Notes under the pieces: model-generated
Database searches by the model: none
Seen by the model: the letters and a program-made list of their open reading frames with translations, nothing else
Told to the model about the DNA's origin: nothing
Assembly (NCBI GenBank): GCA_021776115.1
Contig: JAJFGN010000068.1
Span: 665-64,664, forward strand
DNA from: Kiloniellaceae bacterium
Lineage (GTDB): Bacteria; Pseudomonadota; Alphaproteobacteria; Kiloniellales; J153
DNA length: 64,000 nucleotides
Reading direction: 5' to 3'
Shown: one piece after another, positions 28,092-45,060 of the stretch
Layout of the letters: each line of letters begins with the position of its first letter
Position numbering within the stretch: position 1 is the stretch's first letter
Made by a program: the position numbers and the translations under genes

Positions 28092-28255
28092 TGAGTATTA
28101 AGTCCAGAAATGACGCCTGAGCCACCCAAACAATTTAGGGCGCCAATATAGATGTAAGGCGAAATGCACAGAAGCAGTGTTGTAACAAGAAACGGTGGTT
28201 CACTAGAGCTGGTCGCTCAAAAAACAGCAATATGAAATTCCGGAAGGCCGTGGGA

Positions 28256-29104
28256 CTAAACTTTTCGCATCACCGCTTGGGTCCATTGTGGCGACCCGTG
28301 TTCCGAAAGGTCTCGGAAGGTTTCGACTTTCAGCCCCCCTAAACTCGCTATAAGTTCGCAGAAGTCGCGCGCTTTGGTCCAGTGCATAGTGTCGTGGTTA
28401 CCCACCGCAAAACCTTCTTCGTAACCATATACGATGTCTGCGACGAATAGGCCTTCCGCTTTGAGGACGCGGCGTATCTCCGACAAAATCTTGTCGAGAT
28501 CCCAGGCATGATCGAGGCAATTCATATAGACGCAATCGACCGAGTCATCGGCGAAATTGAGGGCATGGAAATCGCCGACAACGACGAACTCAGGAGCCGC
28601 CCCGGGATTAAGGTCTATGCCAATGGCGAAATGGCCAAGTTCTATGAAAGCTTTGACTTCTTCTCCTCGCCGCGCCCCTAGACAAAGAACCGACCCATGC
28701 GGCGTCAACTGATCGATGAGTTCGAATCGCTTGCGGAAAAGCCGTACCGCTTTTTCGGCATTTACGAAAGCCTCGCCACCCAGACTATCCAATTTGTCAA
28801 CTTGATGGGCAGTGTACTCGTCGTAGTCGGCATAACGACGCTTGGAGATGGTGCCGTCATGGCCCCAGTTGTCGCTCTGAAATTCTTCCCGTTGCGCCTT
28901 CATTCTTGCGGCAAATGCCGCCAATTTTTCGGCCGACGGCGTTGGGTCCTTGAAGAGGCTGAAAAACTGGCGCCACCCCTTGGATGTAAGCACCATGAAG
29001 ATTTTCGAAGGGGATCGAGACAGAATCGACCATGATCGACTCATTGCGTGGCTGATCTGCGGTCTAGTCATGAGTTTCTCTACAAAACGATTTGGCGACA
29101 GCAA
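28256..29104 (-). CDS. SAM-dependent methyltransferase (class I-like)
   Basis: VLCLGARRGEEVKAFIELGHFAIGIDLNP, VDCVYMNCLDHA and LKAEGLFVADI. Start uncertain. Confidence 0.6.
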   Translation of the reverse strand: MLSPNRFVEKLMTRPQISHAMSRSWSILSRSPSKIFMVLTSKGWRQFFSLFKDPTPSAEKLAAFAARMKAQREEFQSDNWGHDGTISKRRYADYDEYTAHQVDKLDSLGGEAFVNAEKAVRLFRKRFELIDQLTPHGSVLCLGARRGEEVKAFIELGHFAIGIDLNPGAAPEFVVVGDFHALNFADDSVDCVYMNCLDHAWDLDKILSEIRRVLKAEGLFVADIVYGYEEGFAVGNHDTMHWTKARDFCELIASLGGLKVETFRDLSEHGSPQWTQAVMRKV

Positions 29105-29142
29105 TAGATCTGCGCTGAATTATCGGATGCGATAAGCGATGG

Positions 29143-30174
29143 CTATTTACGAATGGCCACCACCGGGCCTGCGTTGAACTGGACTTTCTGAGGAATGTCC
29201 TTCGTCTCAAAAACGACGTGGAACCCAAGCTTCTCAATATGTTTTATCCTTCCGGTGAAGTATCCGGCGCGCCGAATGTACGCGCGCGCATGCTTGTTCA
29301 CATTGTAGTCGCGCCACGGCTCGACCAGCACAATGGCGCGGTCGGCTACGCGGACAATTTCGTTGAGCGCCTGTTCGCGAATCTGTTCCATTTGCTCGAG
29401 AGCGAGCCGAGTGTAGACAAGGTCAAAGGACCGGTCCGAATATGGCAACGCCCTTGCATCGCCGACACGCAAATCGGCCCTTTGGTGGGCGCTCAGGTCG
29501 CATGCCGGCAGCGGCGAGTTGTTGGCTATCCCAGGGGGCAATTCGGTTAGCTTCTGGATCTCTTGCGCGACTTTGACACCGGAGGGCGTCAATTCAACGC
29601 CCGAAAACGAAACCTGTGGAAAACGGGCGGCCAGCGTTAGGATCGTATTGCCATTGCCACACCCGACTTCCAGGACCCTCTTCGCATCGATGGCTTCTAT
29701 CGCATTCATTATATAAAGGATGTGCACTTGGCGCAGTATCTGGGGTGAAGCAATAAGACCGCGTTGGCGCCATTCAATAGCGAAACTGCGATCATTGAGA
29801 CCTTCAACATACTGTTCGAGCGAATCAGCCGATGTCCAGTGGTTCTCATAGGCCTTGCGGACATCGGTCTGTGCCGCCGCGTTTCGGCCCGTATGAAACA
29901 TGCGTCGCAACCACTGTCGCTTTCCGAGTGCACGGTTGCTGATCCCGTGAGCCGCGCGTTCCCGCCACGCCGGATCACAAATATTGAACTCTTCACGGAT
30001 ATGGGGCGCGATGAGCGAGTCGATAAGTGTGTCATCGACTGCGAACTCATTGCCGAGAGGCGTTTTGGTTGAGAGTTTCTCGGAAACGCTAGGCATTGTC
30101 GTCTTCCTGCCGTCTATTGGCCTGCGCGAGGCTTTGGCCAAACTGGGAACGAAATCTGATGGCGGTTGGTTCAA
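29143..30174 (-). CDS. Class I SAM-dependent methyltransferase
   Basis: RVLEVGCGNGNTILTLAARF and DLVYTRLALEQM. The TTG start at 30174 forms a TTGA overlap with the upstream stop (30171-30173). ATG at MPSVSEKL is an alternative. Confidence 0.75.
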   Translation of the reverse strand: MNQPPSDFVPSLAKASRRPIDGRKTTMPSVSEKLSTKTPLGNEFAVDDTLIDSLIAPHIREEFNICDPAWRERAAHGISNRALGKRQWLRRMFHTGRNAAAQTDVRKAYENHWTSADSLEQYVEGLNDRSFAIEWRQRGLIASPQILRQVHILYIMNAIEAIDAKRVLEVGCGNGNTILTLAARFPQVSFSGVELTPSGVKVAQEIQKLTELPPGIANNSPLPACDLSAHQRADLRVGDARALPYSDRSFDLVYTRLALEQMEQIREQALNEIVRVADRAIVLVEPWRDYNVNKHARAYIRRAGYFTGRIKHIEKLGFHVVFETKDIPQKVQFNAGPVVAIRK

Positions 30175-31151
30175 TCCACGAACATCAGGGCATTCGGCTC
30201 GCTGAGCTTGATGCCTTCGAGCAACCCGCGAGTGACGTGTAGGTGCCCACCCTTGACAACCCTCTTGGCCGGGTATGCCGGCAGAGCGTCCGGGCGTGGC
30301 ACATACTGAAACTGAAAGACCAGTCTAGGCCGCTCCGTCGCGCGACTTCCTTGGTGCAGGCACCGGCTCGTATCGACAAAGAGGCCGCTGCCAGCGGGGC
30401 CGTTTGCGATGATCGCGTGTTTCTCGGAAACAGTGCGATAGACATCGTAATCCCTAAGCGTCTTTAGCAATCCGCCGTGACGAAGCGGCCGCGACGTTAG
30501 GGTCTTAGGGAAAAAGGTCAGGCCACCACTCCCTGGCCCTACATCCCAGATGTTGATGAAACACTTTACCTGATTCAAGGCATCGCCATCGACATGATAC
30601 ATTTGGCTGCCGTCGATGGTGTCGTTTACCGCCGAATAGAAGACCCCCAAGGAATGAAGCCGCGGCACCTGACCAAGGTACCCTGTTACGGTTTCAGTGA
30701 CTGCGGCGCTCAACGCAAAATCGGCCAGGATTGGATGCGCGCGCAGATCGTCATCGGTCAAGATGTTGTAGAAATAGTGTTTGTTTACCGGCCTAAGCCC
30801 AATCTCGTGCGCATGTCGCGTGTATATATCCTGGCATGCGGCGACGATTGCAGACGCTTCTTGGAATGTATCGTCAGAAAACAGCCTGTATCCGGAATCC
30901 CGCGGTACAAATGCGGACCAGCGCGAAGTGGTGCGGAGTTTTCGGGCATTGCGGCGGGCAGCGAGGTGCGCTGCCGGCCGCGTTGCCACGCGCCTGGCCT
31001 CGATGAGATAAAGAGCGAGGAGGGGCCATCCGGTGCGAAATCCTTTTCGCAGGACACGGCGGTCCAGGCGCTGACCGATCGAGAGATCAGGCATGCGCCG
31101 GACCCATGAACCCGGAAAGAGGCCGGAAATCGTCGAAACCCATGCACACAA
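30171..31151 (-). CDS. Hypothetical protein, possible Fe(II)/2-oxoglutarate (PhyH-like) oxygenase
   Basis: Candidate facial triad HxD (MYHVDGD) plus a distal His (TSRCLHQGS). Weak call, start uncertain (MPDLSIGQ at about 31094 is possible). Confidence 0.35.
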   Translation of the reverse strand: MCAWVSTISGLFPGSWVRRMPDLSIGQRLDRRVLRKGFRTGWPLLALYLIEARRVATRPAAHLAARRNARKLRTTSRWSAFVPRDSGYRLFSDDTFQEASAIVAACQDIYTRHAHEIGLRPVNKHYFYNILTDDDLRAHPILADFALSAAVTETVTGYLGQVPRLHSLGVFYSAVNDTIDGSQMYHVDGDALNQVKCFINIWDVGPGSGGLTFFPKTLTSRPLRHGGLLKTLRDYDVYRTVSEKHAIIANGPAGSGLFVDTSRCLHQGSRATERPRLVFQFQYVPRPDALPAYPAKRVVKGGHLHVTRGLLEGIKLSEPNALMFVD

Positions 31152-31249: not shown

Positions 31250-32014
31250 ATGGCATCAAAATCAACATCCACGCAATTCCCGCAGATGTTTTCCCTGTAC
31301 GGCCAAAGCGCCATCGTTACCGGTGCCTCGCGCGGTATCGGGTGGGCACTGGCGGAAGGCCTCTCCCAGGCTGGTGCCTCGGTAGTTGCCGTTGCTCGCT
31401 CCAGGCGTCCCGTAGAACCATTCTCCGCGAGCGTCAGATACCAGTCCTGTGATGTGCTCGATATCGCCGCATTCGAAAAATGTCGAGACGCCGCGATTGA
31501 ACTCGACGGCCGTCTCGACGTGCTGGTCAACTGTGCTGGCATCAGTATTTCCGGTTACGAAATGGACGCATTCGACCAAACGATGGCGACCAATCTGCGC
31601 GGACCCTATCAGTGCGTTCGTGCCGTTACCGGGGCGATGCGGGAAAGGGGCCGTGGTTCGATCATCAACGTCACCAGCTTGGCTGCCTTCAAGGGCTTCC
31701 CCGACAACCCCGGTTACATCGCCGCCAAGGGTGGCTTGAGCCAGCTGACCCGGGCGCTTGCCTACGACCTTGGGCCGGCCGGTATTCGGGTCAACAACCT
31801 GGTGCCGGGCTATATCGCCACGGACATGACGGCGGCGACCAACTCGGATTCCATTGCCCACGATCAAAGAAGCCGGCATACAATGCTGGGTCGATGGGGT
31901 GACCCCGCCGATCTTGTCGGCGCCGCGATCTTTCTCGCCTCCGATGCTTCCGCATATGTAACGGGCCAAGACATTGTCGTCGATGGCGGCTGGCTCGCGA
32001 AAGGACTCATTTAA
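31250..32014 (+). CDS. Short-chain dehydrogenase/reductase (SDR)
   Basis: AIVTGASRGIGWALAEGL (TGxxxGxG), NCAG and YIAAKGG (YxxxK). Plus strand; its stop lies 2 nt from the stop of the convergent exonuclease gene. Confidence 0.9.
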   Translation: MASKSTSTQFPQMFSLYGQSAIVTGASRGIGWALAEGLSQAGASVVAVARSRRPVEPFSASVRYQSCDVLDIAAFEKCRDAAIELDGRLDVLVNCAGISISGYEMDAFDQTMATNLRGPYQCVRAVTGAMRERGRGSIINVTSLAAFKGFPDNPGYIAAKGGLSQLTRALAYDLGPAGIRVNNLVPGYIATDMTAATNSDSIAHDQRSRHTMLGRWGDPADLVGAAIFLASDASAYVTGQDIVVDGGWLAKGLI

Positions 32015-32016
32015 CA

Positions 32017-32634
32017 CTAGAGCCGGCCCGCGGCGCGCCAAGCCGAAAACGCCGCGGCAATCGCTTTGCAATCGTGCAAGGCTGAATGGGCACGGCCGTG
32101 GACACGGATACCAGCCAGATCCGGCAAGTCCGAAGAAATGAGTTCCTGTTGCGGCACATTTAGAGTTTGGGCAAGCAAGGGGCGGAAGTTGTACCAGCGG
32201 TCTCCTCCCCATCGGAATGCGACGCCATTCATCGCGCAGTTTTCCCGAAGAATCGCGCCGTCATAACCGTTGAAGACGACCAGATCAGCTGCAGAAAAGA
32301 GGCTAGAGAGATCGTCCAGCGCCTCGGTGAACTGTCGAGCCTTGGATACCAGATGTTCTTGCGTGATCCCGGTCAGGGACACGAAGTACTCGGACAGAAC
32401 CGGGTTGCGGGTGGGCTGCATCAAGATCTCTATGCCATCCGTGGCGGCAAAGGCCCGTCCCGCGTCAACAAGTAAAACGCCTACCTGAACAATCTCACGC
32501 CACTCCCAGGGTTCGCTCCATTGTCGTTTTGCCGATCCCTCCCAGGCGGTGTATTCGAGGTCCAGAATTCCGATCAGGCCCCGGTCCGGCCAAGTGACGA
32601 GCGGTGGATCGTCGGGTACGGTCAGCGTAGGCAT
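32017..32634 (-). CDS. DEDDh-type 3'-5' exonuclease domain protein
   Basis: ExoI ILDLEYT (DxE), ExoII VVFNGYDGAIL and ExoIII HSALHDCKAIA (Hx4D). Starts 5 nt after the stop of the radical SAM gene. Confidence 0.6.
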   Translation of the reverse strand: MPTLTVPDDPPLVTWPDRGLIGILDLEYTAWEGSAKRQWSEPWEWREIVQVGVLLVDAGRAFAATDGIEILMQPTRNPVLSEYFVSLTGITQEHLVSKARQFTEALDDLSSLFSAADLVVFNGYDGAILRENCAMNGVAFRWGGDRWYNFRPLLAQTLNVPQQELISSDLPDLAGIRVHGRAHSALHDCKAIAAAFSAWRAAGRL

Positions 32635-32639: not shown

Positions 32640-34127
32640 TCAGGCCAAACTCCCCGACCGCTTAAGTGCGGATAGGGAATCAAGGCCTTCACGTACGAGG
32701 CGGACAAAATTCTGCTTGTAAAACGCTAGCACGCTAGCCGATAGAACGGAGTGGTGCGTCATCGTGCGCAGCTGGCTGTCGAGGTCGTATTCGTAGTCGA
32801 GGAAATAATCTTTCTTGGCGCCTTGGCGCTGTTGTTCAGTTCCAAGATAGGGCGAGAAGAAAGCAACGGTCACATTATCCGGATCCAAGGCCTGGTTGAA
32901 GGTTATCGTTTCCAGAATAGATTCCTCAGTTTGGTCAGGAATACCGATAATGTTGTATGCCGTTCGGCGGATCTCTGCCTCGCGAAGCAACATGAAGGCC
33001 CGCACGATGGCGCTCTGATTGCTGAATCGGTTCAAAATATCCTCTCGGAATCCCTGGGTAGACAATTCGATACCCATACCGACGCCATCGACTCTTAGGC
33101 GTTTCAGCAGCGGGATAGTTGAGGGGTTAATGCCTTCAGGTCGAGTTTCTATATAGAGCCGTATCGGCATTTCGTTCGCATCAAAGAGGTCTGCTAGCTC
33201 CAGCAACGTCGACTTCTCGATAGTCAGGAAGTTTGTGTCCTGGCAACGGAACAGTGTAATGCCATACTCGTTGTGCAAGGTCACAATCTCTTCAAAAACG
33301 CGTTTCGCGCTCTTGTGCCGAAGATAGCGATTGAACTCGCGCAGCGCGCCGCGTGGCGTCGTCTCTTCAAAGCCGTAGTAGCGCTGAATCACCGTTTCAA
33401 CGCAGTAGCTACAGGTGAATGGGCAGCCGCGCGACAGCTCGTAGTCGACCGCCCTAACAACCTCACCGCAATAGGGGCGCAGGAACGTCTGGTCGTCGAA
33501 CAGGCTGTAGTCGTAGGGGCCGATGGCGTCGAGATCGGAGATAATTTGCTGGCGGGGGGCCTCGATGATATCAGTGCCATCGCGGCTGATCAGGCCGGGA
33601 ATCCGGTCGAGGCCTTCGCCCGATTGCCATGCGTCGACAAAGTCTTGGAGGACAAATTCGGATTCGCCGCCGATGAAATAGTCGACACCGGAAAAGCGTA
33701 TCGCCGTCTCGCCGGCGGACGCTGTCGGTTGCAGGCCCCCGCAAACCTTAATCGCCGGGCATGAGGTTTGAGCTATCAAGTCGTGACCGAATTGGATGGC
33801 GGCGTATTCGCCCTCGCCGTGGATATGGGCCGATATTGCCGCCCAGAAAATAATGTCTGGCGCAAACTCGTCGAGCTTGGCCTGGAGCGCGGTCGTGACC
33901 GGTGTGTCGCTAAACCTCACCAGGCTCTCGTACGCAGAAGGTTGGTACTGCAGGTTGGCCGTGTTGAAGGCGTTTTCGTTTTGCGCCCAGTCGCGAAAAA
34001 AGGTCGCATCGAACAAGGCGACCTCGTGGCCGCGGGATTTCAGCACGGCAGTATGGCTTGCAATCCAGATGGGGGTAATGCCGCGCCCCCAACGACTTGG
34101 GTTTAACAATAGCACCCGTGCCATCAT
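32640..34127 (-). CDS. B12-binding-domain radical SAM enzyme (class B, methyltransferase candidate)
   Basis: N-terminal Rossmann-like B12-binding region (MMARVLLLNPSRW...KSRGHEVALFD) and the radical SAM cluster motif SRGCPFTCSYC (CxxxCxxC). Confidence 0.8.
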   Translation of the reverse strand: MMARVLLLNPSRWGRGITPIWIASHTAVLKSRGHEVALFDATFFRDWAQNENAFNTANLQYQPSAYESLVRFSDTPVTTALQAKLDEFAPDIIFWAAISAHIHGEGEYAAIQFGHDLIAQTSCPAIKVCGGLQPTASAGETAIRFSGVDYFIGGESEFVLQDFVDAWQSGEGLDRIPGLISRDGTDIIEAPRQQIISDLDAIGPYDYSLFDDQTFLRPYCGEVVRAVDYELSRGCPFTCSYCVETVIQRYYGFEETTPRGALREFNRYLRHKSAKRVFEEIVTLHNEYGITLFRCQDTNFLTIEKSTLLELADLFDANEMPIRLYIETRPEGINPSTIPLLKRLRVDGVGMGIELSTQGFREDILNRFSNQSAIVRAFMLLREAEIRRTAYNIIGIPDQTEESILETITFNQALDPDNVTVAFFSPYLGTEQQRQGAKKDYFLDYEYDLDSQLRTMTHHSVLSASVLAFYKQNFVRLVREGLDSLSALKRSGSLA

Positions 34128-34856
34128 TTACTCTCCACGCATCCGTCGGTTCGCCTCGGCAAGTTCGATCTCGTAGTCGATGTCGATCGATTCACGATCG
34201 AGGCAGAAAGGCAAAATGTTATCACCGGTCAGAGACCTCTTCTCGAAAATCGTCGCCGGACGGGTGATGTCGATAAATCCGTCCTGCTGATAAACGGTTG
34301 GCAGCATTTGACGGGCTTGATTGTAAGGTTCGTCGATATCCGGAAGGCTGAGTAGGGAAGACAAGAAACCACCGTCCGAAAGCCGCCACATCTTGTAGGG
34401 TGAGAAGCAGGCGGCGGTTACGGCGCGCAGCGAATCCGCCTCCGGCCGTTCGGCAATCAGCCTAATCGCGCGGTCAATCTGGTCGATATCCCGAATGGGC
34501 GTTGTCGGCCGCAACTGGACGACCAGATCGGGTGCATACCGTTCGTTGTCGCGCAACCAGGTCAAGGCGTGGTGGACGAACTCATAGTCGCTGCTCAGGT
34601 CCTGGGCAAACTCGCTGGGTCGAAGGAATGGAACCTCGGCGCCTGCGGCCCGGCCGACTTCGGCGATCTCCGGCTCGTCGGTCGTCAAAATGACCCGTGT
34701 GATGCAGGAGGCACGGCGTGCGTGCTCGATTGCGTGGACCACCAGCGGTTTTCCACCAACCTCGCGCAGATTCTTGCGCGGCATGCTTTTCGATCCGCCG
34801 CGCGCCGGCACTAGGGCCAGAACCTCCAAGCCGGCGCCCTTGTTCGACCCGGTCAT
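34128..34856 (-). CDS. Acylneuraminate cytidylyltransferase family (CMP-ulosonic acid synthetase) #2
   Basis: VLALVPARGGSKSMPRKNLREVGGKPLVVHAIE and VVQLRPTTPIR. Confidence 0.85.
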   Translation of the reverse strand: MTGSNKGAGLEVLALVPARGGSKSMPRKNLREVGGKPLVVHAIEHARRASCITRVILTTDEPEIAEVGRAAGAEVPFLRPSEFAQDLSSDYEFVHHALTWLRDNERYAPDLVVQLRPTTPIRDIDQIDRAIRLIAERPEADSLRAVTAACFSPYKMWRLSDGGFLSSLLSLPDIDEPYNQARQMLPTVYQQDGFIDITRPATIFEKRSLTGDNILPFCLDRESIDIDYEIELAEANRRMRGE

Positions 34857-35365
34857 TTGGCGTGTTCTTCCGGATTAGCAGGGGCATACACCAGGCCCAA
34901 AACGTTTTCGGCCAGTTCACGCGCAGCGCCGTCGCCGCCCTTGGATGTCAGCACCGTACGGGCGGCGGCCAATACCGTGAGGTGAGCGTCGGCGACCGCG
35001 ACGGGAAACCCCACCGATGCCATGGCGGTCAGGTCGTTCAGATCGTTACCCACGAAAATCACCCGGCCGAGATCGATGCCTGCTTGTCGGCAATGCTGGA
35101 CCAAGGCCTGCTTCTTATCCCTGACATTCTGCAGCACGGGGGTGTGCAGTTTCTCGGCGCGCCGCGCCACGACCGCATTGCGTTCCGTGGAGAAAATCAT
35201 AACCGGAATACCGGCCAAACGGAACATGTCGAACCCGAGACCGTCGGCACGATTGCACACGACGCCCTCACGCCCATCTTCCAAGACGATTACACGGTTG
35301 TCCGTGAGCACGCCGTCAAAGTCGAAGACGATCAAGTCGATAGAGTTGCGACTAATGGGTTCCAT
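34853..35365 (-). CDS. KdsC-family HAD-IIIA phosphatase (ulosonate-phosphate phosphatase)
   Basis: IDLIVFDFDGVLTDNRV, DGLGFDMFRLAGIPVMIFSTE and FVGNDLNDL. 170 aa. ATGA overlap at 34853-34856. Confidence 0.8.
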   Translation of the reverse strand: MEPISRNSIDLIVFDFDGVLTDNRVIVLEDGREGVVCNRADGLGFDMFRLAGIPVMIFSTERNAVVARRAEKLHTPVLQNVRDKKQALVQHCRQAGIDLGRVIFVGNDLNDLTAMASVGFPVAVADAHLTVLAAARTVLTSKGGDGAARELAENVLGLVYAPANPEEHAK

Positions 35366-35373
35366 TCCAGAGA

Positions 35374-36558
35374 TTAACGTTCTAGCCCGCAGAAAAGCGA
35401 TTCAGCCGTATGATTGAATAGTCGGGCCTGTGCCCTCATTTGCTGACGCGCCGCACCGAAGCGGCCGCGGATATCGTTGGGATCGGAGAGCACACGATCT
35501 ATCATTGCCGTCAGGCGATCCGCCATGTCGGCGTCGAAGGCGTCGACGGCTAGATCGGAGATGCCGATATTCGCCAGGAAATCGCTCATTCTGTTCTGAG
35601 TCGTCAGCGGAATCATTGGTGTGCCAAGACCGATGCTGGGTGACATTGAATGAACGCGCATGCTGATGATCAAGTCAGCTTTGCGATAGCGTCCATAGAA
35701 ATGCCGACTCCCTGAGATCCGAGCTAGGCCGGTTGAAATCATCCTCTGATGCGCCAGGGCCGGTTTGCACATGTCGATGAAGTCGGCAATCATCCGCAAA
35801 TCATCGAAATAATGGGGGACGAGAATAAGGTTGACATCCCAACGTACTAACATCCGCTCGACTGCGACGACGATCTCCCGTAGCATTTTCGCCCGGCGCT
35901 CGGAGCTGCCGTAGCGAAATTCCGCGTCCTCATCATTGAACGCCAGCAAAACGTTCGAGCGACCGCGCTCAAACTCTGGATACTCTGTATCCTCTTCTGC
36001 CGGCAAGAATACACCGGGATCCGGAATGACGTGAAGGTTGTCTCCAGAGATCCCGAACCGCGAGGAGAGCCACTCCCGCGTGCCGTCGTTGCGCAGTGCC
36101 AAGAGCATGTTACGCCGACCGAGAATGTGATCGATGGTCCAGCACAAATTATCTGCATGATGATACGGTTGATTATCCCAGTGTCGGTACGAGATGCCGT
36201 AGAATACCAAAGGCGCTTCAATCTGTGACCATAACGGTCTTGGCAGATTGAAGCGCATGCCGGCGTCGGCATAGAATTCACGGCCATTGATGGCAACGGC
36301 CCCGCCGACGAGCATGCCATCCGATCGATCGTTGATTAGCGAGACGAATTTCTGATCGAATTGCTTGAGACCGAAAGTGTAGTCATCCCAAGGTTCGCGG
36401 GACCATTTAATAGGGCGCGCGAAATCTTCCTCGATAACTCGCTCGGCCCCTTCCGTTAACGCGCCGTTTCCTACGTTCGCGCTGTTTCCGTTGACTAAAT
36501 GAATCAGCGATAGCGTGGATTTCCGGGTGGACATTCTCCGTCTTTCCATTGCCTGCAA
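35374..36558 (-). CDS. Polysaccharide pyruvyl transferase family protein (WcaK/CsaB-like)
   Basis: General resemblance only: N-terminal NSANVGNGAL and C-terminal DLIISMRVHSMSPSIGLGTPMIPL. Confidence 0.55.
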   Translation of the reverse strand: MQAMERRRMSTRKSTLSLIHLVNGNSANVGNGALTEGAERVIEEDFARPIKWSREPWDDYTFGLKQFDQKFVSLINDRSDGMLVGGAVAINGREFYADAGMRFNLPRPLWSQIEAPLVFYGISYRHWDNQPYHHADNLCWTIDHILGRRNMLLALRNDGTREWLSSRFGISGDNLHVIPDPGVFLPAEEDTEYPEFERGRSNVLLAFNDEDAEFRYGSSERRAKMLREIVVAVERMLVRWDVNLILVPHYFDDLRMIADFIDMCKPALAHQRMISTGLARISGSRHFYGRYRKADLIISMRVHSMSPSIGLGTPMIPLTTQNRMSDFLANIGISDLAVDAFDADMADRLTAMIDRVLSDPNDIRGRFGAARQQMRAQARLFNHTAESLFCGLER

Positions 36559-36560
36559 CG

Positions 36561-37436
36561 TTACCCAACTCGGCGAAGTTTGCTTTTGATCGGCACCTCA
36601 TCGGCCAACACGCGTTTGACACCATCGCCGTGGACGACAGGCCACATCGCGATATACTTCGACAGAAGGTCCATCCCTCGTGGCTCTAAGCTTGCCGCTT
36701 GGTCGCTGCCCCACATCGCTCTGTCCAGCGTGATATGCCGTTCGACAGCGCAGGCGCCGAACCCAGTTACGGCCATAATGGACGGCATAACGCCGACTTC
36801 ATGGCCGCTATAACCGAGCGGAAGGTTGTATCTTTCACGTAATGTATTGATCACTGACAGGTTGAGTTCATGGTCTTTAGATGGGTATGTCGACGTCGTG
36901 TGCATCAGCACCAGGTTCGCGCCGCGCAGTAATTCCACAGCATGATCGATCTCGTCTATGGTGCTCATACCGGTCGATAGAATGATCGGACGGCCGGTCG
37001 CCTTGATCCGTTTCAAAAGCCCATCGTCGGTTAGGCTCGCCGATGCGATCTTGTAGCAAACCGGATCGAAGGGTTCGAGAAAATCGACGCTGGTCTCATC
37101 CCATGGTGAGCAAAACCAATCGATCCCCTTTTCGCGGCAGTATCGGTCGATCTCCATATATTCGTCTTTCCCGAACTCCAAACCATGCTTGAGATCCCCG
37201 TTTGTCGTCCCAAACGGCGATTCGCGCGAGCGTGCGAGATCCTCCGGCGTGAAGACGATTTCTATGGTACGCTTCTGGAACTTGACGGCGCTGAACTTGT
37301 GCTCGACGGCCTTATCGATAAGTCGCCGGGCGATGTCGATGTCGCCGTTGTGATTAATGCCGATTTCTCCAATGAGATAGCAGGGTTCGCCGGGGCCGAC
37401 GCGCCGACCGCCAATTGTAATCGCTTTCTGCGTCAT
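36561..37436 (-). CDS. NeuB-family ulosonic acid (phosphate) synthase, short form lacking a SAF domain
   Basis: 291 aa. CYLIGEIGINHNGDIDIARRLIDKAVEHKFSAVKFQ, FCSPWDETSVDFL, YKIASASLTD, GRPIILSTGMSTIDEI and LMHTTSTYPS. The protein ends about 50-60 aa short of SAF-containing NeuB/PseI. Confidence 0.8.
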   Translation of the reverse strand: MTQKAITIGGRRVGPGEPCYLIGEIGINHNGDIDIARRLIDKAVEHKFSAVKFQKRTIEIVFTPEDLARSRESPFGTTNGDLKHGLEFGKDEYMEIDRYCREKGIDWFCSPWDETSVDFLEPFDPVCYKIASASLTDDGLLKRIKATGRPIILSTGMSTIDEIDHAVELLRGANLVLMHTTSTYPSKDHELNLSVINTLRERYNLPLGYSGHEVGVMPSIMAVTGFGACAVERHITLDRAMWGSDQAASLEPRGMDLLSKYIAMWPVVHGDGVKRVLADEVPIKSKLRRVG

Positions 37437-37482: not shown

Positions 37483-38910
37483 CTAAAGCGCGAGCTTTTC
37501 AGGCGGAACTCGATGGCTGTGGCTGAGGCCGGTTAACTCTTGCATTAGGGCCTGGCGGACGCGTTCACTGGATTTTCCATCCGCATTCCCCGTCCACTTG
37601 GCAAGGGCGGCAAGAGCTGCCGGACCAAGCTGCTCACGGATCGAGCTTGGCGATTGACAGTGACGCTCAATGCGGGCGACCAGATCCTCCACCGAACTCG
37701 CGTGTTCCACGGCGTCATGGAGTTCCACATTGAACCCATGATAACGAGGATCAAGGGCCTCTCCGAAATGCGGTACAACGACCGGCTTGTTGACGGCCAG
37801 TGCCTCAAGCAGAACCGTCGTATTGTGGCCGCAAACGACCCAACTGGCTTCAAGTAGCGGTGTCGCCTCGCCCGCTGCGACAATCCGGAGGTTCTTAGGG
37901 CGCTTTCCTTCCTGATCGAGCAAGGCCGCGACCTCGTCACGCTCATGGACACGAGGACGAACGATGACGTCGTAGGTGGGGTTTCTTTCCGCCAATAGGA
38001 TGGCCGCGCGGTAGGTGCCCCGGCAGAGTTCGTCCCATGCCAGGTCGCTGTCGATCCCAGAATAGCTGGGGAGGAAGTTGTTCGGTAGAAAGGCCAGCAG
38101 CAACACCGTCGGTTGTGGCGAGCGGAGGGGGACACTCCCCGCGGCGGCTAGCCGGCGCCATTTATGATTGCGATCGAGACGCGGCATGCCCACGATGGTG
38201 ATCTGATCGGGGCGGGCGATATACCCTTCGATTTGGTGATCGCGCTCCGACTCGTGGTAAACGAGCACCCGCCGACCAGTAAATTGCCCGCGTTCCTTGC
38301 GAAACAGTTCCCGCAGCATCTTACTTCTCTCTGGCGGCTTAATGCCTTCCTTGTGTAGCACGACGAATGGCGTTCCATTCGCTTCGAGCTCACTGGCAAG
38401 TTCGCGTTCCGCCCAATAACACCAGTTACCCGTCAGGACAGCGTCGTACCTCGACACCATCGACATATATCGCCAGATTTTCTTCCATAGCTTGCGATAG
38501 CGTTGCTTCGCCCGCGTGGCAGCAGGATCGTCGGAGATATAGGCATCGTCACCGCAAATGGTACGTGGCAATATGCCCAGTGCCAGCGACTTTAGTACCG
38601 CGCGCCTCACGCCAAACGCTTGAATCTCCTTCGCTTCGCCGAGGACTTCCAGCACATCTTCGACAAACACCGCCTTTTCAATTACCAGAACACGATGTGG
38701 TGCCGGGCCGCCGGTCAGTGGGCGGATCGTCTTGTGTATTAGGTACGCAGCCGGAAGCGCGAGCCCAAGCTTCGCCAGGATTGGCAACAGCGGCAATGCC
38801 ACGTCAAAACTGCTGCGCGCCTTGGCCAGCACCTTGATGAGGCGGTAGTAGTTCGTAAGCCTTTCGGCAATGTGGCTGAGACGAGGCGTCATCGATCGAT
38901 CGGCCTTCAT
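37483..38910 (-). CDS. GT-B-like hypothetical protein (degenerate HP motif)
   Basis: VIVRPRVHER followed by VVCGHNTTVLLEALAVNKPVV. Start moved from 39048 to ATG 38910 (MKADRSMT), which removes the overlap with the upstream gene. Confidence 0.35.
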   Translation of the reverse strand: MKADRSMTPRLSHIAERLTNYYRLIKVLAKARSSFDVALPLLPILAKLGLALPAAYLIHKTIRPLTGGPAPHRVLVIEKAVFVEDVLEVLGEAKEIQAFGVRRAVLKSLALGILPRTICGDDAYISDDPAATRAKQRYRKLWKKIWRYMSMVSRYDAVLTGNWCYWAERELASELEANGTPFVVLHKEGIKPPERSKMLRELFRKERGQFTGRRVLVYHESERDHQIEGYIARPDQITIVGMPRLDRNHKWRRLAAAGSVPLRSPQPTVLLLAFLPNNFLPSYSGIDSDLAWDELCRGTYRAAILLAERNPTYDVIVRPRVHERDEVAALLDQEGKRPKNLRIVAAGEATPLLEASWVVCGHNTTVLLEALAVNKPVVVPHFGEALDPRYHGFNVELHDAVEHASSVEDLVARIERHCQSPSSIREQLGPAALAALAKWTGNADGKSSERVRQALMQELTGLSHSHRVPPEKLAL

Positions 38911-38930
38911 GTCGTGTGCGGTGTGTGGTG

Positions 38931-40709
38931 TCAAACCGGCTGCAGTACGGCCGCGGATTTGCGGTCGCACTGGCTGTCCATCTGTCTCGGCACGGGAACG
39001 TGATTGCTGCCGTCCGCGGCAATGAATTCTCCCTGACGGGCCACCCACTCATCTTCGGAGCACGCCAAGGCGTCAATGAAGGGGAGGTAGCGTTCGATCC
39101 GGGCGGAACGAATCAGCTTGTGCAAGGGTTGTTCCCGCACGCTTGAGGGCTTGTGGTAGGGGAACGGCCATTGCATGACGAAGTGAAAAATGAAATGGAA
39201 CAGAGCCGCCTCCTTCGCCGCCTCCTGTTCGAACGGCGGAACTTCCGGCAATGCGGCGAGTCGGCGCAAGTGCGCGAAATACGCATCGGTCGATTCGCTA
39301 TCTACGGTAAAGCCCCGCCGACTGTAGTAGACAGTCGCACCGACCACGGCCGTCCTGCCCAGCATCGCCATTTCCATTCCGGTCGTCGAGGAAAAGACGA
39401 CACCAAACTGGCACTTCTCGATCAGGTTGTAGGTGTTCACGGCCTGATCTCCGGGAATCATGGTGAGTCGCTCATGCCCGTTGAAATCCGCAAGGGTTGC
39501 TTCACTACGCTCTTTGCCACCATAGGAGGCGGCTTCCCCGGGATGGGCCCGCACAACCACATGAATGTCGGTTTGCGTCAGCAAAAAGCGAACCGTTTGC
39601 AGTAGCCACTCTCTCATGCTGGGGAAAAGGCCCAGCAACGTGGAGTAACCGGCATCGTAAGGGACGTTGGTGCAGACCAGAACAAAGCGCCGGCCGTCCT
39701 CGACACCCGCAGCGCGCAACGTTTCCTCGAGGGTCTGATCGGGCGATTTCTGCAAAGCCCAACCCCAGTTGGCGGTGGAGGCGTGGCGGCGTTCGTCCAG
39801 CAAAGTCAGAGCGCGATTCACGGCGAAGCTTCGAAAAGGCTCGTTGTGATAGCCAAGCTCCTTGCGATGCCGCCAAGCGGCATCCACGTCGTTGAAGGCC
39901 AGAAAGTGATCGCCGTGGTTGAGCACTCTCACGCCCCGAAAGTCAAACTTCTCAAAGGCATTCACGGGCAGGCCCAGGGCCTTGGCCGTCTGACAGAATT
40001 GCGCCGTCTCGAAGGTGGCGCCATTGGGGACCAGGACCATATCGAAGTCGACCCGATGTCGTGATAAGTACGCCATGGCGATGGCTCGGGTATTGCGGGC
40101 CTGCGTCTTGTAGTAGGTCCATGCCGTCCTCACATCCGGGTCAGTCATATCGATGGTTTCGCGGCGGGTGTACATTATTGTGTCGCTGAGCACCTGCGCG
40201 TTTAGGACCTCTTTGTCGATCGAGATGTTCTCGACCGGGATGTCCGAGAGGTCGACGCAACGTAATCTGCCGCCACTCAGTCGTTTGACACGGCCGAGAA
40301 CTGCCCGCAGGTAGGGCTTCGCGCTCGGATGATCCTCGAGAGGTGGTTTGATGGGACTTTGCAATTTGGGCAGGTAGCCCATGGTAACGCTGTGTCCGCG
40401 CCAGGCCAGAAGAATGGCGACCATGAAATCGTGGGTGAACTGAATCCGGTAGGCGGTAAACAGAAAGATGCGCTTGGGCGGCGGCAACGGATAGGCGGGC
40501 GCCGCATTGAGAGCGCTCAGCCATGCCGGAAGGTGTGCGCTGAGCGACCACTTATCGTTTGGGGTCAGGCGGGTCACGACCGGCGCGAGCGCGAATATCA
40601 AACGCCGCGCAATCGGGCCCGGGTGGCGGTGGGCATAGATGTGGTCGGGAAGCCACTCCAGCCCTTGCCGCAGTCGACGCGCCAATCTTTGGGTGATGGT
40701 CAGGGACAC
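38931..40709 (-). CDS. GT-B-like protein with HP motif; candidate CMP-ulosonate transferase
   Basis: 592 aa. HVVVRAHPGEA followed about 55 aa later by VVFSSTTGMEMAMLGRTAVVGATVYY, which resembles the capsule-synthesis (KpsC/KpsS-type) C-terminal motif. Confidence 0.4.
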   Translation of the reverse strand: MSLTITQRLARRLRQGLEWLPDHIYAHRHPGPIARRLIFALAPVVTRLTPNDKWSLSAHLPAWLSALNAAPAYPLPPPKRIFLFTAYRIQFTHDFMVAILLAWRGHSVTMGYLPKLQSPIKPPLEDHPSAKPYLRAVLGRVKRLSGGRLRCVDLSDIPVENISIDKEVLNAQVLSDTIMYTRRETIDMTDPDVRTAWTYYKTQARNTRAIAMAYLSRHRVDFDMVLVPNGATFETAQFCQTAKALGLPVNAFEKFDFRGVRVLNHGDHFLAFNDVDAAWRHRKELGYHNEPFRSFAVNRALTLLDERRHASTANWGWALQKSPDQTLEETLRAAGVEDGRRFVLVCTNVPYDAGYSTLLGLFPSMREWLLQTVRFLLTQTDIHVVVRAHPGEAASYGGKERSEATLADFNGHERLTMIPGDQAVNTYNLIEKCQFGVVFSSTTGMEMAMLGRTAVVGATVYYSRRGFTVDSESTDAYFAHLRRLAALPEVPPFEQEAAKEAALFHFIFHFVMQWPFPYHKPSSVREQPLHKLIRSARIERYLPFIDALACSEDEWVARQGEFIAADGSNHVPVPRQMDSQCDRKSAAVLQPV

Positions 40710-40715
40710 CGAGGG

Positions 40716-42518
40716 TCAGCCTGCGTTCCGAAAATAGCCGGTCTTGATATTCGCGGCATAACTCGACGACGGTTCGGCCAACCATGCGCCTAGGCATTCG
40801 CGCTCGCGCGCCAGCGCCGGATCTCTCTCGCCATAGCGGTGTAGAATATCTTTGTAGAGGACCGGTCCGCTGGAATCACAGCGCATTTCGATTAGGCCAG
40901 CATCGGTCGGCGTTGGGGCTAGGGCAAGGGAGATCAGCGCCAGGGCGCGCTGGCGCCCCGCTTCATCCGGCGCTGGCAGGTCGTCAGCTGTCCGCAACAG
41001 CCGGATGTAGTCTTCTCGGGATACGGCTTGCTGAACGAAACCCCAATTGCCGTAGAAGCTGCGGTCAGCGGCGATTACGGGAAGTCCGTGCGCGGCAGCC
41101 TCGAGGCCCACTGTGCCATGCACTGTGACGACGATGTCGGCGGCGGTTAGGGCGGTGAGCGAATCCGTGTCCCGGGGGGCGAGGCGCACGTGCGACGGCA
41201 GATCGCCCACCATATCCTGCAGCCGGAAGCCCCCGTACCAGCTCTCGGCGGGATGCGGTTTCAAGACCCAGTCGATATCCGGGGCGGCGCACACTTCCGC
41301 CATGGTCAGGTGCATCCAGTCTAGGAAGTCCGTGAAGTTGCGCATGGCGAAAGTGTGCGGAAAATCGAACCAGACATGTGAATAGATGACGGCAAGCTTG
41401 CGTGCGCCGGTCACACCGAGGGCACGGCGTGCCTCGGCGCGCGAAGGCGCCTTAGAGTGCAGGCGGAACGCATAGCGGACGTTGATGTCCGTGCCCTGGC
41501 CCGACTCACGCCGCGCCAGGTACCGCGCCCCTTCCTCGGACAGCCTTTGCCGCACAATTGCGGGCAAAGCCTCAAATTCGCTTAGGCTCAGGTGCTCCAC
41601 CGGGGTTGCATAGTCGTTGGTATTGAAGAAACGACGAATGCGAATACCCTCGCAGTATCCAGTTAGGTGATGGGCGGGCACGCCGTGGGTCAGGGCTGCC
41701 CACATCAAGGTGGCGAACTCGTTCTTCCAGGGGTGGCTCACGATCACCTGGGCGACCGGCGCCGTTTCCAGCAAGTCCTGATAGATGGCGCAGTTCCGCA
41801 AGCACTCCGCCAGGGTGCGCTCCCATAACGGGTTGCCCAGCGCAGGCTGCGGGTGGCGCGCCAGCTTCAATACGGTGTCGTAGTAGGTATAGGCAGGCAG
41901 CCCCTCGGGTAGTGGCAGGGCCAGAACGTCGGCATGACAACGGACACCGGCAAGCAAAGCGCGGGCCTGGGGCCGAAAGGCCTCGGTGCGATGGCGCGGA
42001 TGGTCTTCGATGGCAATGAACTCAGTAAAGCCCAAGCTTTCCAGCGCCGGTCGGGTGCGGTCGCCGGTCCGGCCAAGAACACCGATCAAGCGCGTGGTCT
42101 CGATGCCAGGGAGGGCCTCAAGAAAAAGGCGCAATCGAAAGAAATGATTCGGGTTGTCCCACAATCCGTCCGCCACGACGGTCTGCGGTCCGGCGCCATT
42201 GGTGACGGGGCCGAGCTTGTCGTAGAGGTGGTTGACTCGTTGCCGATACCATTCTGTGTGCCACTGCCGTGCGAGCCGGGTTCCGGCTCGCGCCCAGGCC
42301 CCAGGGCTGGTGATCTTAGCCAGGATCCGGGTCATGCGGGCACGGCTGTCTGCAGTCGGCCGCGACAGCCATAGGCCCGGCTCATTGCGGCGAAGGCGGT
42401 CTCCTTGCCCTTCAACCCGCAGGGAGGCGGGAAGATGAATCTGGTCGCCAAGCCGCGGTGGAATGCTGGAGGGCTCACCCATTTGTCCGAATCTACTTGT
42501 CGTTGCGCCGGTCGACAA
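40716..42518 (-). CDS. GT-B-like protein with HP motif; candidate CMP-ulosonate transferase
   Basis: About 600 aa. [10 protein letters not shown] followed by [33 protein letters not shown]. Start uncertain (ATG at 42482 is an alternative). Confidence 0.4.
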
Positions 42519-45056: not shown

Positions 45057-45060
45057 GGCG

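What the first reader, a model, noticed from the sequence alone, without database searches (positions are those of the whole stretch)
34128..37436. Second ulosonic-acid cassette: SAF-less NeuB, KdsC-type phosphatase, CMP-transferase, with an embedded pyruvyl transferase
Seen (transcription order): a 291-aa NeuB-family synthase ending before any SAF domain, a polysaccharide pyruvyl-transferase-like protein, a 170-aa KdsC-family HAD phosphatase and a NeuA-type cytidylyltransferase. Gaps are 2 and 8 nt, plus one ATGA overlap.

Established: a synthase + KdsC-like phosphatase + CMP-transferase is the signature of routes that pass through a phosphorylated ulosonate. Examples are Kdo-8-P, and KDN-9-P/Neu5Ac-9-P as in animals and some Bacteroides. 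Classical bacterial NeuB uses unphosphorylated ManNAc and needs no phosphatase.

Inference: this cassette makes a KDN- or Neu-like acid through a 9-phosphate-type intermediate. The missing SAF domain argues for a substrate other than free ManNAc. No UDP-GlcNAc 2-epimerase or ManNAc kinase is present, so the aldose-phosphate source is unknown. The pyruvyl transferase could ketal-modify the final glycan.
Basis: partly seen in the sequence, partly recalled or inferred. Interest (0 to 1): 0.55.

Follow-up and report, generated by a model that had tools for sequence, protein, structure and literature searches.

The report
Kdn-type sugar-acid cassette with extra tailoring
This gene block most likely makes a CMP-activated nine-carbon sugar acid of the Kdn type through a phosphorylated intermediate, a known route, but it carries a conserved set of tailoring enzymes that has not been described with it.

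Summary
The four genes are real, at the stated coordinates and spacing. All are on the minus strand: a 291-aa NeuB-family synthase without a SAF domain, a pyruvyl-transferase-family protein, a 170-aa KdsC-type HAD phosphatase and a NeuA-type cytidylyltransferase.

- Relatives exist as fused phosphatase-synthase, cytidylyltransferase-synthase and three-part proteins.
- 73 of 85 related loci carry the phosphatase near the synthase.
- The synthase shares active-site-region motifs with human Neu5Ac-9-P synthase and the Man-6-P-specific Prymnesium Kdn-9-P synthase. It does not share them with the SAF-bearing PseI in the same window.
- It is 56% identical to the Streptomyces synthase of the SCO4879-4881-type operon, in a genus whose walls contain Kdn.

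Two points need correcting:
- SAF absence alone is not the marker of phospho-sugar use.
- The unit is larger than four genes. A 9-12-gene block is conserved: a putative ulosonate transferase, the four genes, a B12-type radical SAM enzyme, a DEDDh nuclease-fold protein, a short-chain dehydrogenase, an unknown protein and methyltransferases.

The exact sugar and the tailoring chemistry remain inferred. Verdict: a new variant of a known pathway, of moderate interest.

The parts
36561..37436 (-). SAF-less NeuB-family ulosonate(-phosphate) synthase, 291 aa
   Evidence: PF03102 at 232 bits with no SAF hit. It carries the motifs KFQKR, GYSGHEVG and ERHITLDRAMWGSDQAASLEP, shared with human NANS and the Prymnesium Kdn-9-P synthase. 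It is 56% identical to the Streptomyces SAF-less NeuB.
35374..36558 (-). PS_pyruv_trans-family protein (GT-B fold). Likely start is ATG 36534 (386 aa).
   Evidence: PF04230 at 65.1 bits over profile positions 1-279 of 280. The AF2 model has pLDDT 95 and gives only generic GT-B matches. The subfamily is always found beside NeuB and CT genes.
34853..35365 (-). KdsC-type (capless HAD-IIIA) phosphatase, 170 aa
   Evidence: NCBIfam gives KdsC, KDN-9-P phosphatase and YrbI at about 86-89 bits. The best PDB match is 3MMZ, the Streptomyces avermitilis HAD, at 2e-43. It is fused to CT in L005 and to NeuB in P0124 and P0129. The DFDGVLTD motif is intact.
34128..34856 (-). NeuA-type CMP-ulosonate synthetase, 242 aa
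   Evidence: PF02348 at 68.6 bits. PDB matches are NeuA and CMP-NeuAc synthetases at 1e-29 to 4e-22. It scores below the PseF equivalog cut-off and is barely alignable to the window's PseF.
32640..34127 (-). B12-binding-type (class B) radical SAM enzyme, 495 aa; starts at the base after the CT stop
   Evidence: PF04055. NCBIfam best hit is BchE at 126 bits, and all hits are below cut-off. It has the CX3CX2C motif. It is 63% identical between Alphaproteobacteria and Acidobacteriota. It always follows the CT gene.
32017..32634 (-). DEDDh (RNase T/ERI-1-like) nuclease-fold protein, 205 aa
   Evidence: PF00929 at 41.7 bits. The DxE, D and Hx4D residues align with human ERI1. It is syntenic with the rSAM gene in at least nine loci, including the Acidobacteriota locus L081.
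31250..32014 (+). Short-chain dehydrogenase/reductase, divergent, 254 aa
   Evidence: adh_short_C2 at 197 bits. It is conserved in the block and lies co-linear as SDR-CT-rSAM-RNaseT in L081.
30171..31094 (-). Conserved protein of unknown family (307 aa from ATG 31094)
   Evidence: No Pfam hit. It is present in the same slot in L001, L005 and L091-L094. Its function is unresolved.
37483..38892 (-). Putative ulosonate transferase (469 aa by public call), directly upstream of the synthase
   Evidence: NCBIfam TIGR04396 'surface carbohydrate biosynthesis protein' at 39 bits and BFO_1060 glycosyltransferase domain at 35 bits, both below cut-off. It always precedes the synthase.
38931..42518 (-). 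Two large Capsule_synth-like proteins (592 and about 588-600 aa) between PseI and the cassette
   Evidence: PF05159 at 20.6 and 21.2 bits, just at the cut-off. They are conserved upstream in L004, L005, L091, L093 and L094.
26277..30174 (-). Two class I methyltransferases (29143-30174, 28256-29104) and a fused ABC exporter (26277-28091) that follow the block
   Evidence: Pfam. They are co-conserved in L005 and L091-L094.

Best explanation
The four genes are the core of a larger operon-like block, about 30.2-38.9 kb on the minus strand.

Proposed pathway:
1. The SAF-less NeuB homologue condenses PEP with a phosphorylated aldose. The most likely aldose is mannose-6-phosphate taken from central metabolism, giving Kdn-9-phosphate.
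2. The KdsC-type HAD removes the phosphate.
3. The NeuA-type enzyme makes the CMP-sugar.
4. The sugar is then tailored by the pyruvyl-transferase-family protein, the B12-type radical SAM enzyme, the short-chain dehydrogenase, the DEDDh-fold protein, the unknown protein and the methyltransferases.
5. The TIGR04396-like protein just upstream installs the sugar into a surface glycan that also contains pseudaminic acid.

What is shown: gene presence, family membership, fusions, conserved synteny and motif sharing. What is inferred: the phosphorylated substrate, Man-6-P/Kdn as its identity, every tailoring reaction and their order.
For: - Gene families.
- Rosetta-stone fusions among 45-56%-identical relatives: CT-HAD-NeuB (P0124), HAD-NeuB (P0129), NeuB-CT (P0139) and CT-NeuB (P0154); a HAD-CT fusion in L005; a single CT-HAD-NeuB reading frame in two actinomycetes.
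- 73 of 85 loci with the synthase have a KdsC-type HAD within 10 kb, usually the next gene, in phyla from Acidobacteriota to CPR.
- The motifs KFQK[RS], the beta2-alpha2 loop G.T.G..K..LEF, GYSGHE and ERHIT.D...GSD.AASLEP are shared with human Neu5Ac-9-P synthase (sequence verified) and with the Prymnesium Kdn-9-P synthase. That enzyme is itself SAF-less (312 aa) and accepts Man-6-P but not Man (PMC6200933). The window's PseI and a NeuB+SAF from L002 lack these motifs.
- The NJ tree puts the canonical NeuB group apart with 98% support.
- 56% identity (2e-109) to the Streptomyces SAF-less NeuB. That gene sits beside a 3MMZ-type HAD and a polysialyltransferase-like gene, matching the SCO4879-4881 operon (PMC3479208). 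Streptomyces walls carry Kdn teichulosonic acid (PMC11481543).
- The extended block is conserved in Magnetovibrio, in GCA_022844485.1 and in seven metagenome loci. SDR-CT-rSAM-RNaseT recurs next to NeuB-HAD in an Acidobacteriota MAG.
Against: - No enzyme of this clade has been assayed. The link to phospho-sugar use rests on motifs and on the linked phosphatase.
- The grouping with NANS and the Prymnesium enzyme has only 13% bootstrap support.
- Overall identity to the Prymnesium synthase (33%) is no higher than to the window's PseI (37%).
- The HAD scores below every NCBIfam equivalog cut-off, including KDN-9-P phosphatase (88.7 against 180). It has GNDLND where KdsC and BT1713 have GDDxxD.
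- The S. coelicolor cluster also has a NanE-like gene (PMC3479208), so a ManNAc-6-P route cannot be excluded for the family.
- Many relatives pair synthase and HAD with no cytidylyltransferase nearby.
- Nothing shows which atom any tailoring enzyme touches.
Confidence: 0.62

Rival explanations
1. Same three-step logic, but the aldose is ManNAc-6-phosphate. The product would be a neuraminic-acid type sugar (Neu5Ac-9-P, then Neu5Ac, then CMP-Neu5Ac), as in animals.
For: The motifs are shared with human Neu5Ac-9-P synthase as much as with the Kdn-9-P synthase. The S. coelicolor cluster includes a predicted ManNAc-6-P 2-epimerase (PMC3479208).
Against: The conserved block has no NanE, NanK, NeuC or other source of ManNAc-6-P. 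The genus with the orthologous trio is reported to carry Kdn, not Neu5Ac (PMC11481543).
Confidence: 0.12
2. The synthase uses a different aldose phosphate, such as arabinose-5-P or a heptose phosphate. It would then make an octulosonate or another chain length, acting as a NeuB-fold analogue of KdsA with KdsC- and KdsB-like partners.
For: The HAD scores equally well against KdsC. In Melainabacteria and Acidobacteriota the synthase-HAD pair occurs without a NeuA-type gene nearby. Related PvT-CT modules sit with GDP-heptose-type genes and a NeuB-SAF-AP_endonuc fusion.
Against: The family is common in monoderm lineages without LPS (Actinomycetes, Chloroflexi, CPR), where it is fused to NeuA-type cytidylyltransferases. 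The window's CT matches NeuA/PseF far better than KdsB. There is no arabinose-5-P isomerase in the block.
Confidence: 0.1
3. The synthase uses a free, non-phosphorylated aldose like classical bacterial NeuB. The HAD acts elsewhere, for example making the free aldose from its phosphate before condensation.
For: Gene fusion and adjacency do not give the reaction order. Another SAF-less NeuB (Leptospira 6NCS) has canonical motifs.
Against: All characterised KdsC-type capless HADs act on ulosonate phosphates (established knowledge; PDB names). The synthase carries the motifs of the two phospho-sugar-dependent enzymes. It also lacks the SAF-domain arginine reported to be essential in the ManNAc enzyme (PMC8208679).
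Confidence: 0.1
4. The pyruvyl-transferase, radical SAM, nuclease-fold and dehydrogenase genes do not act on this ulosonate. They would serve other residues of the glycan or an unrelated product, and are merely co-located.
For: Characterised PS_pyruv_trans enzymes act on lipid-linked or polymer-bound hexoses (established knowledge). There is no biochemical link between any of these proteins and ulosonates.
Against: The PvT subfamily was found only beside NeuB and CT genes, in four different genomic backgrounds. CT-rSAM-RNaseT(-SDR) stays together across phyla while the rest of the neighbourhood changes.
Confidence: 0.2

Closest known systems
CMP-Kdn pathway of Bacteroides thetaiotaomicron (BT1714 Kdn-9-P synthase, BT1713 Kdn-9-P phosphatase, CMP-Kdn synthetase) and Prymnesium parvum
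   Same: It has the same three enzyme types in the same logic: NeuB-fold synthase, KdsC-type capless HAD, NeuA-type cytidylyltransferase. The Prymnesium synthase is also SAF-less and shares the KFQKR, GxSGH and ERHxT.DR..GxD.AASLEP motifs.
   Different: Identity to the Prymnesium synthase is only 33%. The HAD scores 88.7 bits against a 180-bit cut-off for the BT1713 equivalog and is much closer to Streptomyces 3MMZ. The window block adds PvT, a B12-rSAM, a DEDDh protein, an SDR and methyltransferases, which those pathways lack.
Streptomyces SCO4879-SCO4881-type operon (NeuE-like, NeuA, NeuB) in the PhoP-activated cell-wall polymer cluster
   Same: The synthase is 56% identical and also SAF-less. 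The HAD is of the same 3MMZ clade (151 bits), and the CT-HAD arrangement matches. The genus is reported to carry Kdn teichulosonic acid (PMC11481543).
   Different: The Streptomyces locus pairs the trio with a polysialyltransferase-like PF07388 protein, a GT2 and an acyltransferase. It has no PvT, rSAM or nuclease-fold gene. That this operon makes the Kdn is my recollection of the literature, not a paper I could read here.
Animal Neu5Ac-9-P synthase (NANS), Neu5Ac-9-P phosphatase and CMAS
   Same: It uses a phosphorylated aldose, and the synthase motifs are shared (36% identity). A KdsC-like HAD domain is associated with the cytidylyltransferase (PDB 3EWI).
   Different: NANS keeps the SAF/AFP domain, and the animal substrate source (GNE) is absent here.
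Classical bacterial NeuB, PseI and LegI
   Same: Same PF03102 TIM barrel, with the same metal- and PEP-binding residues (invariant K52, K129, S132, H212, H234).
   Different: The classical enzymes have a SAF domain and use free sugars. Their motifs are KFQTF/KLQTY and GxSDHT, and they form a separate group with 98% support.
Fom3 of fosfomycin biosynthesis (a B12 radical SAM methyltransferase acting on a CMP-tagged substrate made by a cytidylyltransferase)
   Same: A cytidylyltransferase gene is immediately followed by a class B radical SAM gene. This is a precedent, from my own knowledge, for such an enzyme working on a cytidylylated substrate.
   Different: No detectable specific relationship was tested. 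The substrates are phosphonates, not sugars. This is an analogy only.

Membership tests
NeuB / sialic-acid-synthase superfamily (PF03102) | NeuB TIM-barrel domain above the Pfam gathering score | tested here: met
   232 bits against a cut-off of 22.1, profile positions 1-240 of 241.
NeuB / sialic-acid-synthase superfamily (PF03102) | Conserved metal-binding His pair and PEP-binding Lys/Ser residues | tested here: met
   K52, K129, S132, S210, H212, E232 and H234 are invariant in alignments with human NANS, PseI and family members. The mapping to N. meningitidis residues is from memory.
Classical bacterial N-acetylneuraminate synthase (TIGR03569 NeuB_NnaB) | Equivalog score, and a C-terminal SAF/antifreeze-like domain carrying the substrate-binding Arg | tested here: not met
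   224 bits against a cut-off of 399.65. There is no SAF hit, and the protein ends at KLRRVG.
Phospho-sugar-dependent synthases (NANS / Kdn-9-P synthase) | Sequence signature shared by the characterised members (KFQK[RS], beta2-alpha2 loop, GxSGH, ERHxT.D...G.D.AASLEP) | tested here: met
   Alignment A2 with human NANS (P0271) and the Prymnesium Kdn-9-P synthase (P0286). The signature is my own derivation, not a curated definition.
Phospho-sugar-dependent synthases (NANS / Kdn-9-P synthase) | Monophyly with characterised members | tested here: inconclusive
   The NJ tree places them as sister groups, but with 13% bootstrap.
Phospho-sugar-dependent synthases (NANS / Kdn-9-P synthase) | Activity on Man-6-P or ManNAc-6-P and not on the free sugar | not testable with these tools
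   Needs an enzyme assay.
KdsC / YrbI-type capless HAD-IIIA phosphatases | Small (about 160-190 aa) capless HAD with a DxDGxxTD nucleophile motif and similarity to KdsC-family structures | tested here: met
   170 aa with DFDGVLTD. PDB hits include 3MMZ, 4NAV, 3MN1, BT1713 (3E81) and KdsC.
KdsC / YrbI-type capless HAD-IIIA phosphatases | NCBIfam subfamily or equivalog cut-offs (TIGR01670 106.95; KdsC 208; KDN-9-P phosphatase 180) | tested here: not met
   Scores are 85.8, 88.2 and 88.7 bits. It is therefore a distinct clade, the 3MMZ type.
CMP-ulosonate synthetases (PF02348 CTP_transf_3) | Domain above the gathering score and similarity to NeuA structures | tested here: met
   68.6 bits against 22.6. 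PDB matches are 9FTB NeuA at 1e-29, 6IFD and 1EYR.
PseF (CMP-pseudaminic acid synthetase, TIGR03584) | Equivalog cut-off | tested here: not met
   120 bits against 205.7. It is barely alignable with the window's own PseF.
Polysaccharide pyruvyl transferases (PF04230) | Full-length domain above the gathering score | tested here: met
   65.1 bits against 25.3, profile positions 1-279 of 280. The predicted fold is GT-B.
Polysaccharide pyruvyl transferases (PF04230) | Equivalence to a characterised enzyme (CsaB, WcaK), or PEP-dependent ketal formation | tested here: not met
   CsaB scores 19.2 against 213 and WcaK 17.3 against 399. There is no PDB sequence hit. Activity is not testable here.
Class B (cobalamin-dependent) radical SAM enzymes | Radical SAM core with CX3CX2C, plus an N-terminal B12-binding-type domain | tested here: inconclusive
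   PF04055 at 56.8 bits, with C235/C239/C242. Matches to B12-rSAM families run from about residue 80 on, all below cut-off. PF02310 is only 'weak' for the L005 orthologue.
DEDDh 3'-5' exonucleases (PF00929) | Domain hit and catalytic DxE / D / Hx4D residues | tested here: met
   41.7 bits against 24. The residues align with ERI1. The substrate is unknown.

The most novel reading that the evidence does not exclude
The block makes a nonulosonic acid not yet described. It would be a Kdn-type backbone carrying a pyruvate-derived substituent (ketal or carboxyethyl) and a C-methyl or other radical-SAM-installed change. The B12 radical SAM enzyme would work on the CMP-linked sugar, as Fom3 does on CMP-tagged phosphonates. 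A DEDDh nuclease-fold protein would have been recruited into sugar-nucleotide metabolism.
Probability: 0.3. Interest if true: 0.75.

Novelty: new variant of a known kind. Interest (0 to 1): 0.5.

Why it matters
SAF-less NeuB homologues are very common in environmental bacteria. This query alone had 1839 representative clusters at E<=1e-30. They are routinely annotated 'N-acetylneuraminate synthase', although a published survey left their function open (PMC8208679).

The fusions, the synteny and the motifs assembled here give a testable rule. KFQKR/GYSGHE synthases linked to a 3MMZ-type HAD would be phospho-sugar (Kdn-9-P type) synthases. If that holds, thousands of genes could be re-annotated.

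The conserved add-on (pyruvyl-transferase subfamily, B12 radical SAM, DEDDh-fold protein, SDR) points to ulosonic-acid chemistry that has not been described. That would interest glycobiologists and radical-SAM enzymologists. The block lies beside a pseudaminic-acid cluster in a large surface-glycan island.

Tried and rejected
- Deep phylogeny. The NJ tree with 100 bootstraps resolves the SAF-less clade (61%) and the canonical NeuB clade (98%). It does not resolve the link to NANS/Kdn-9-P synthase (13%).
- The unknown 307-aa protein. It has no Pfam hit even at E 0.1. hhalign against the PhyH protein that occupies a similar slot in L087 was not significant.
- The specificity-determinant paper on KDN9P versus KDO8P phosphatases could not be fetched. 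HAD specificity residues were therefore not assessed.
- No paper linking pyruvyl transferases with nonulosonic acid biosynthesis was found.
- The promoter and terminator scan gave no more sites than shuffled sequence. The operon structure rests on spacing only.
- The idea that the synthase is a truncated pseudogene was rejected. The family is uniformly about 290 aa and highly conserved.
- The idea that SAF loss itself marks phospho-sugar use was rejected.

Full report
**1. Observation**

All four ORFs exist on the minus strand at the stated coordinates:
- 36561-37436: 291 aa.
- 35374-36558: 394 aa from a TTG start.
- 34853-35365: 170 aa.
- 34128-34856: 242 aa.

Pfam assigns them to NeuB (232 bits, no SAF), PS_pyruv_trans (65 bits, full length), HAD/Hydrolase_3 and CTP_transf_3. 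NCBIfam places the HAD equally close to KdsC, to the Bacteroides KDN-9-P phosphatase and to the YrbI subfamily, at about 86-89 bits. All of these are below cut-off. The cytidylyltransferase is nearest PseF but also below cut-off.

The spacings of 2 nt, 8 nt and an ATGA overlap are correct if the TTG start is used. ATG codons at 36549 and 36534 are alternatives, and public gene calls use 36534. The synthase stop is followed directly by the next gene, so no SAF remnant is hidden. The protein family is uniformly about 275-300 aa.

**2. Surroundings**

The window is one large surface-glycan island.

Upstream on the same strand lies a complete pseudaminic-acid set:
- PseB, PseC and an amidotransferase with HisH/HisF-like partners.
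- PseF, a methyltransferase and a PseG/H fusion.
- PseI, which has a SAF domain.

Three large GT-B-like proteins follow. Two give borderline Capsule_synth hits. The third is a TIGR04396/BFO_1060-like protein directly before the synthase.

Downstream of the cytidylyltransferase lie:
- A 495-aa B12-type radical SAM enzyme, starting at the very next base.
- A 205-aa DEDDh nuclease-fold protein.
- A divergent short-chain dehydrogenase.
- A conserved unknown protein.
- Two methyltransferases and a fused ABC exporter.

A third ulosonate cassette lies at 13.5-21.3 kb. It holds a NeuB-cupin fusion, a GFO oxidoreductase, a nucleotidyltransferase, a HAD, a cytidylyltransferase and a SIS protein.

**3. 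The unit is larger than four genes**

The following order recurs:

surf469 - NeuB - PvT - HAD - CT - rSAM - RNaseT-like - (SDR, divergent) - unknown - methyltransferases

It is found in Magnetovibrio blakemorei, in GCA_022844485.1, where HAD and CT are fused, and in seven metagenome contigs with 71-91% rSAM identity. It is often preceded by PseI and the two Capsule_synth-like genes.

In an Acidobacteriota MAG, SDR-CT-rSAM-RNaseT form one run next to NeuB-HAD. The rSAM there is 63% identical to the window's.

The nuclease-fold protein keeps the DxE, D and Hx4D catalytic residues of ERI1.

**4. The synthase, phosphatase and cytidylyltransferase work together**

Among representatives 45-56% identical to the synthase there are four fusion types:
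- CT-HAD-NeuB (P0124).
- HAD-NeuB (P0129).
- NeuB-CT (P0139).
- CT-NeuB (P0154).

Two actinomycete genomes encode CT-HAD-NeuB in a single frame.

A genome-collection scan returned 80 loci at 54-64% identity from many phyla. With the five loci fetched earlier that makes 85. Of these, 73 carry a KdsC-type HAD within 10 kb, mostly as the next gene, and 41 carry a NeuA-type gene.

**5. Evidence for a phosphorylated substrate**

The Prymnesium parvum Kdn-9-P synthase was shown to use Man-6-P and not Man (PMC6200933). I translated it from the paper's supplement. It is 312 aa and itself lacks SAF.

The human Neu5Ac-9-P synthase sequence was confirmed by exact look-up.

The window synthase and its family share four motifs with both enzymes:
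- KFQK[RS].
- The beta2-alpha2 loop G.T.G..K..LEF.
- G[YF]SGH.
- ERHxT.D...G.D.AASLEP.

The window's PseI and a NeuB+SAF from L002 instead have KLQTY/KFQNF and GLSDHT. A published survey attributes phosphate recognition in the human enzyme to this loop (PMC8208679).

In an NJ tree the canonical KFQTF/GxSDHT group is separate (98%), and the SAF-less clade that includes the window and Streptomyces proteins has 61% support. The sister relation to NANS and the Prymnesium enzyme is unsupported (13%).

SAF loss by itself is not diagnostic, for three reasons:
- NANS keeps the domain.
- The KFQKR/GYSGHE group includes members with SAF.
- The SAF-less Leptospira enzyme 6NCS has canonical motifs.

**6. 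Which sugar**

The HAD's best structural relative by far is the Streptomyces avermitilis protein 3MMZ (2e-43, against about 1e-22 for KdsC and BT1713).

Homologues of 3MMZ are widespread in Streptomyces. There they lie as (CT-)HAD followed by a SAF-less NeuB. This pair is divergent from a GT2, a polysialyltransferase-like PF07388 protein and an acyltransferase. That NeuB is 56% identical to the window synthase (2e-109).

The arrangement corresponds to SCO4879-SCO4881, in a PhoP-activated cluster for a phosphate-free wall polymer (PMC3479208). Streptomyces walls carry a Gal-Kdn teichulosonic acid (PMC11481543).

Man-6-P needs no dedicated gene, and the conserved block has no NanE, NanK or NeuC. 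A Kdn-type product is therefore the best guess. A ManNAc-6-P or other aldose-phosphate substrate is not excluded.

**7. The pyruvyl-transferase-family protein**

It is a true PF04230 member but far from CsaB and WcaK. It has no PDB sequence relative. The confident model (pLDDT 95) matches only generic GT-B folds.

Its subfamily is small, with 351 hits. Every context examined contains a NeuB homologue, a NeuA-type gene and an SDR:
- Omnitrophota: NeuB(279 aa)-PvT-HAD-CT-GFO-SDR.
- Two contigs with GDP-heptose-type genes: NeuB-SAF-AP_endonuc fusion, SIS, PvT, CT, GFO, SDR.
- An alphaproteobacterial MAG: SDR-PvT-...-NeuB-CT-GFO.

This points to the ulosonate as its target. It does not show whether the enzyme acts on the free or CMP-sugar or on the residue after transfer. 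It also does not show whether the product is a ketal or, with the SDR, a carboxyethyl ether.

**8. Radical SAM and nuclease-fold proteins**

Their strict linkage to the cytidylyltransferase suggests action on the CMP-linked sugar. The only precedent I know is Fom3, which acts on a CMP-tagged phosphonate. That comes from my own knowledge and was not tested here. No function can be assigned. BchE is the best NCBIfam match but is far below cut-off.

**9. Verdict**

- The SAF argument and the four-gene boundaries need correction.
- The core trio is a known kind of pathway (Bacteroides, Prymnesium, animals, probably Streptomyces).
- The conserved tailoring set attached to it is not described.
- This is a new variant of a known kind, of moderate interest.

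Noticed in passing
window 13512-21338 (minus strand): A third ulosonate-type cassette. It holds a nucleotidyltransferase (20595-21338), a GFO/IDH/MocA oxidoreductase (19418-20512), a 538-aa NeuB-cupin fusion with no SAF (17842-19458), a methyltransferase, a HAD of the PF00702/HAD_2 type (16296-17114), a CTP_transf_3 (15571-16299), a 510-aa unknown and a GmhA-like SIS protein (13512-14126).
   Followed up: partly
window 42493-51472 (minus strand): A complete pseudaminic-acid cluster. It has an N-acetyl-sugar amidotransferase-like gene plus HisH/HisF-like partners and a methyltransferase, which suggests an acetamidino- or methyl-modified Pse. PseG and PseH are fused.
   Followed up: partly
window 32017-32634; L001, L005, L081, L091-L095: A DEDDh (RNase T/ERI-1-like) protein with intact catalytic residues is conserved immediately after a B12-type radical SAM gene in glycan clusters of two phyla. 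A nuclease fold in a sugar pathway is unexplained.
   Followed up: partly
L011, L029, L036, L039, L063, L070 (Acidobacteriota loci): The SAF-less NeuB-HAD pair lies among genes read from their sequences, not Pfam-scanned. These are RfbF-like, RfbH-like, a dehydratase, a 600-aa TPP (acetolactate-synthase/YerE-like) enzyme and an FkbM methyltransferase. There is no NeuA-type gene nearby.
   Followed up: no
L008, L033, L035, L049, L056-L059 (Melainabacteria/Gastranaerophilales): The NeuB-HAD pair stands alone between unrelated genes, with no cytidylyltransferase within 10 kb. The neighbours, read from their sequences and not Pfam-scanned, are FliO-like, a histidine kinase and aspartate kinase. 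The fate of the free ulosonate there is unclear.
   Followed up: no
L087 4945-13719; L088 4910-13759: GmhB-, HddC-, HddA- and GmhA-like heptose-nucleotide genes flank a 630-aa NeuB-SAF-AP_endonuc_2 fusion. This is followed by PvT-CT-GFO-SDR, hinting at an ulosonate built from a heptose, that is a C10 acid.
   Followed up: no
L076 8783-10864; L077 8645-10861: Microtetraspora niveoalba and Sphaerisporangium aureirubrum encode cytidylyltransferase, HAD and SAF-less NeuB in one open reading frame of about 690-740 codons.
   Followed up: partly
PDB 6NCS versus window 36561-37436: The Leptospira 290-aa 'sialic acid synthetase' is also SAF-less but has KFQA and GYSDH motifs. SAF therefore seems to have been lost more than once in the family.
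   Followed up: partly
window 37483-39048 and 38931-40709: The longest-ORF listing makes these two genes overlap by 118 nt. Public gene calls start the downstream gene at 38892 (469 aa), which removes the overlap.
   Followed up: yes
window 34853-35365: The HAD and its Streptomyces relative 3MMZ have GNDxND in motif IV, where KdsC and BT1713 have GDDxxD. This is a clade-specific change in a metal-binding motif (the KdsC and BT1713 motifs are from memory).
   Followed up: no
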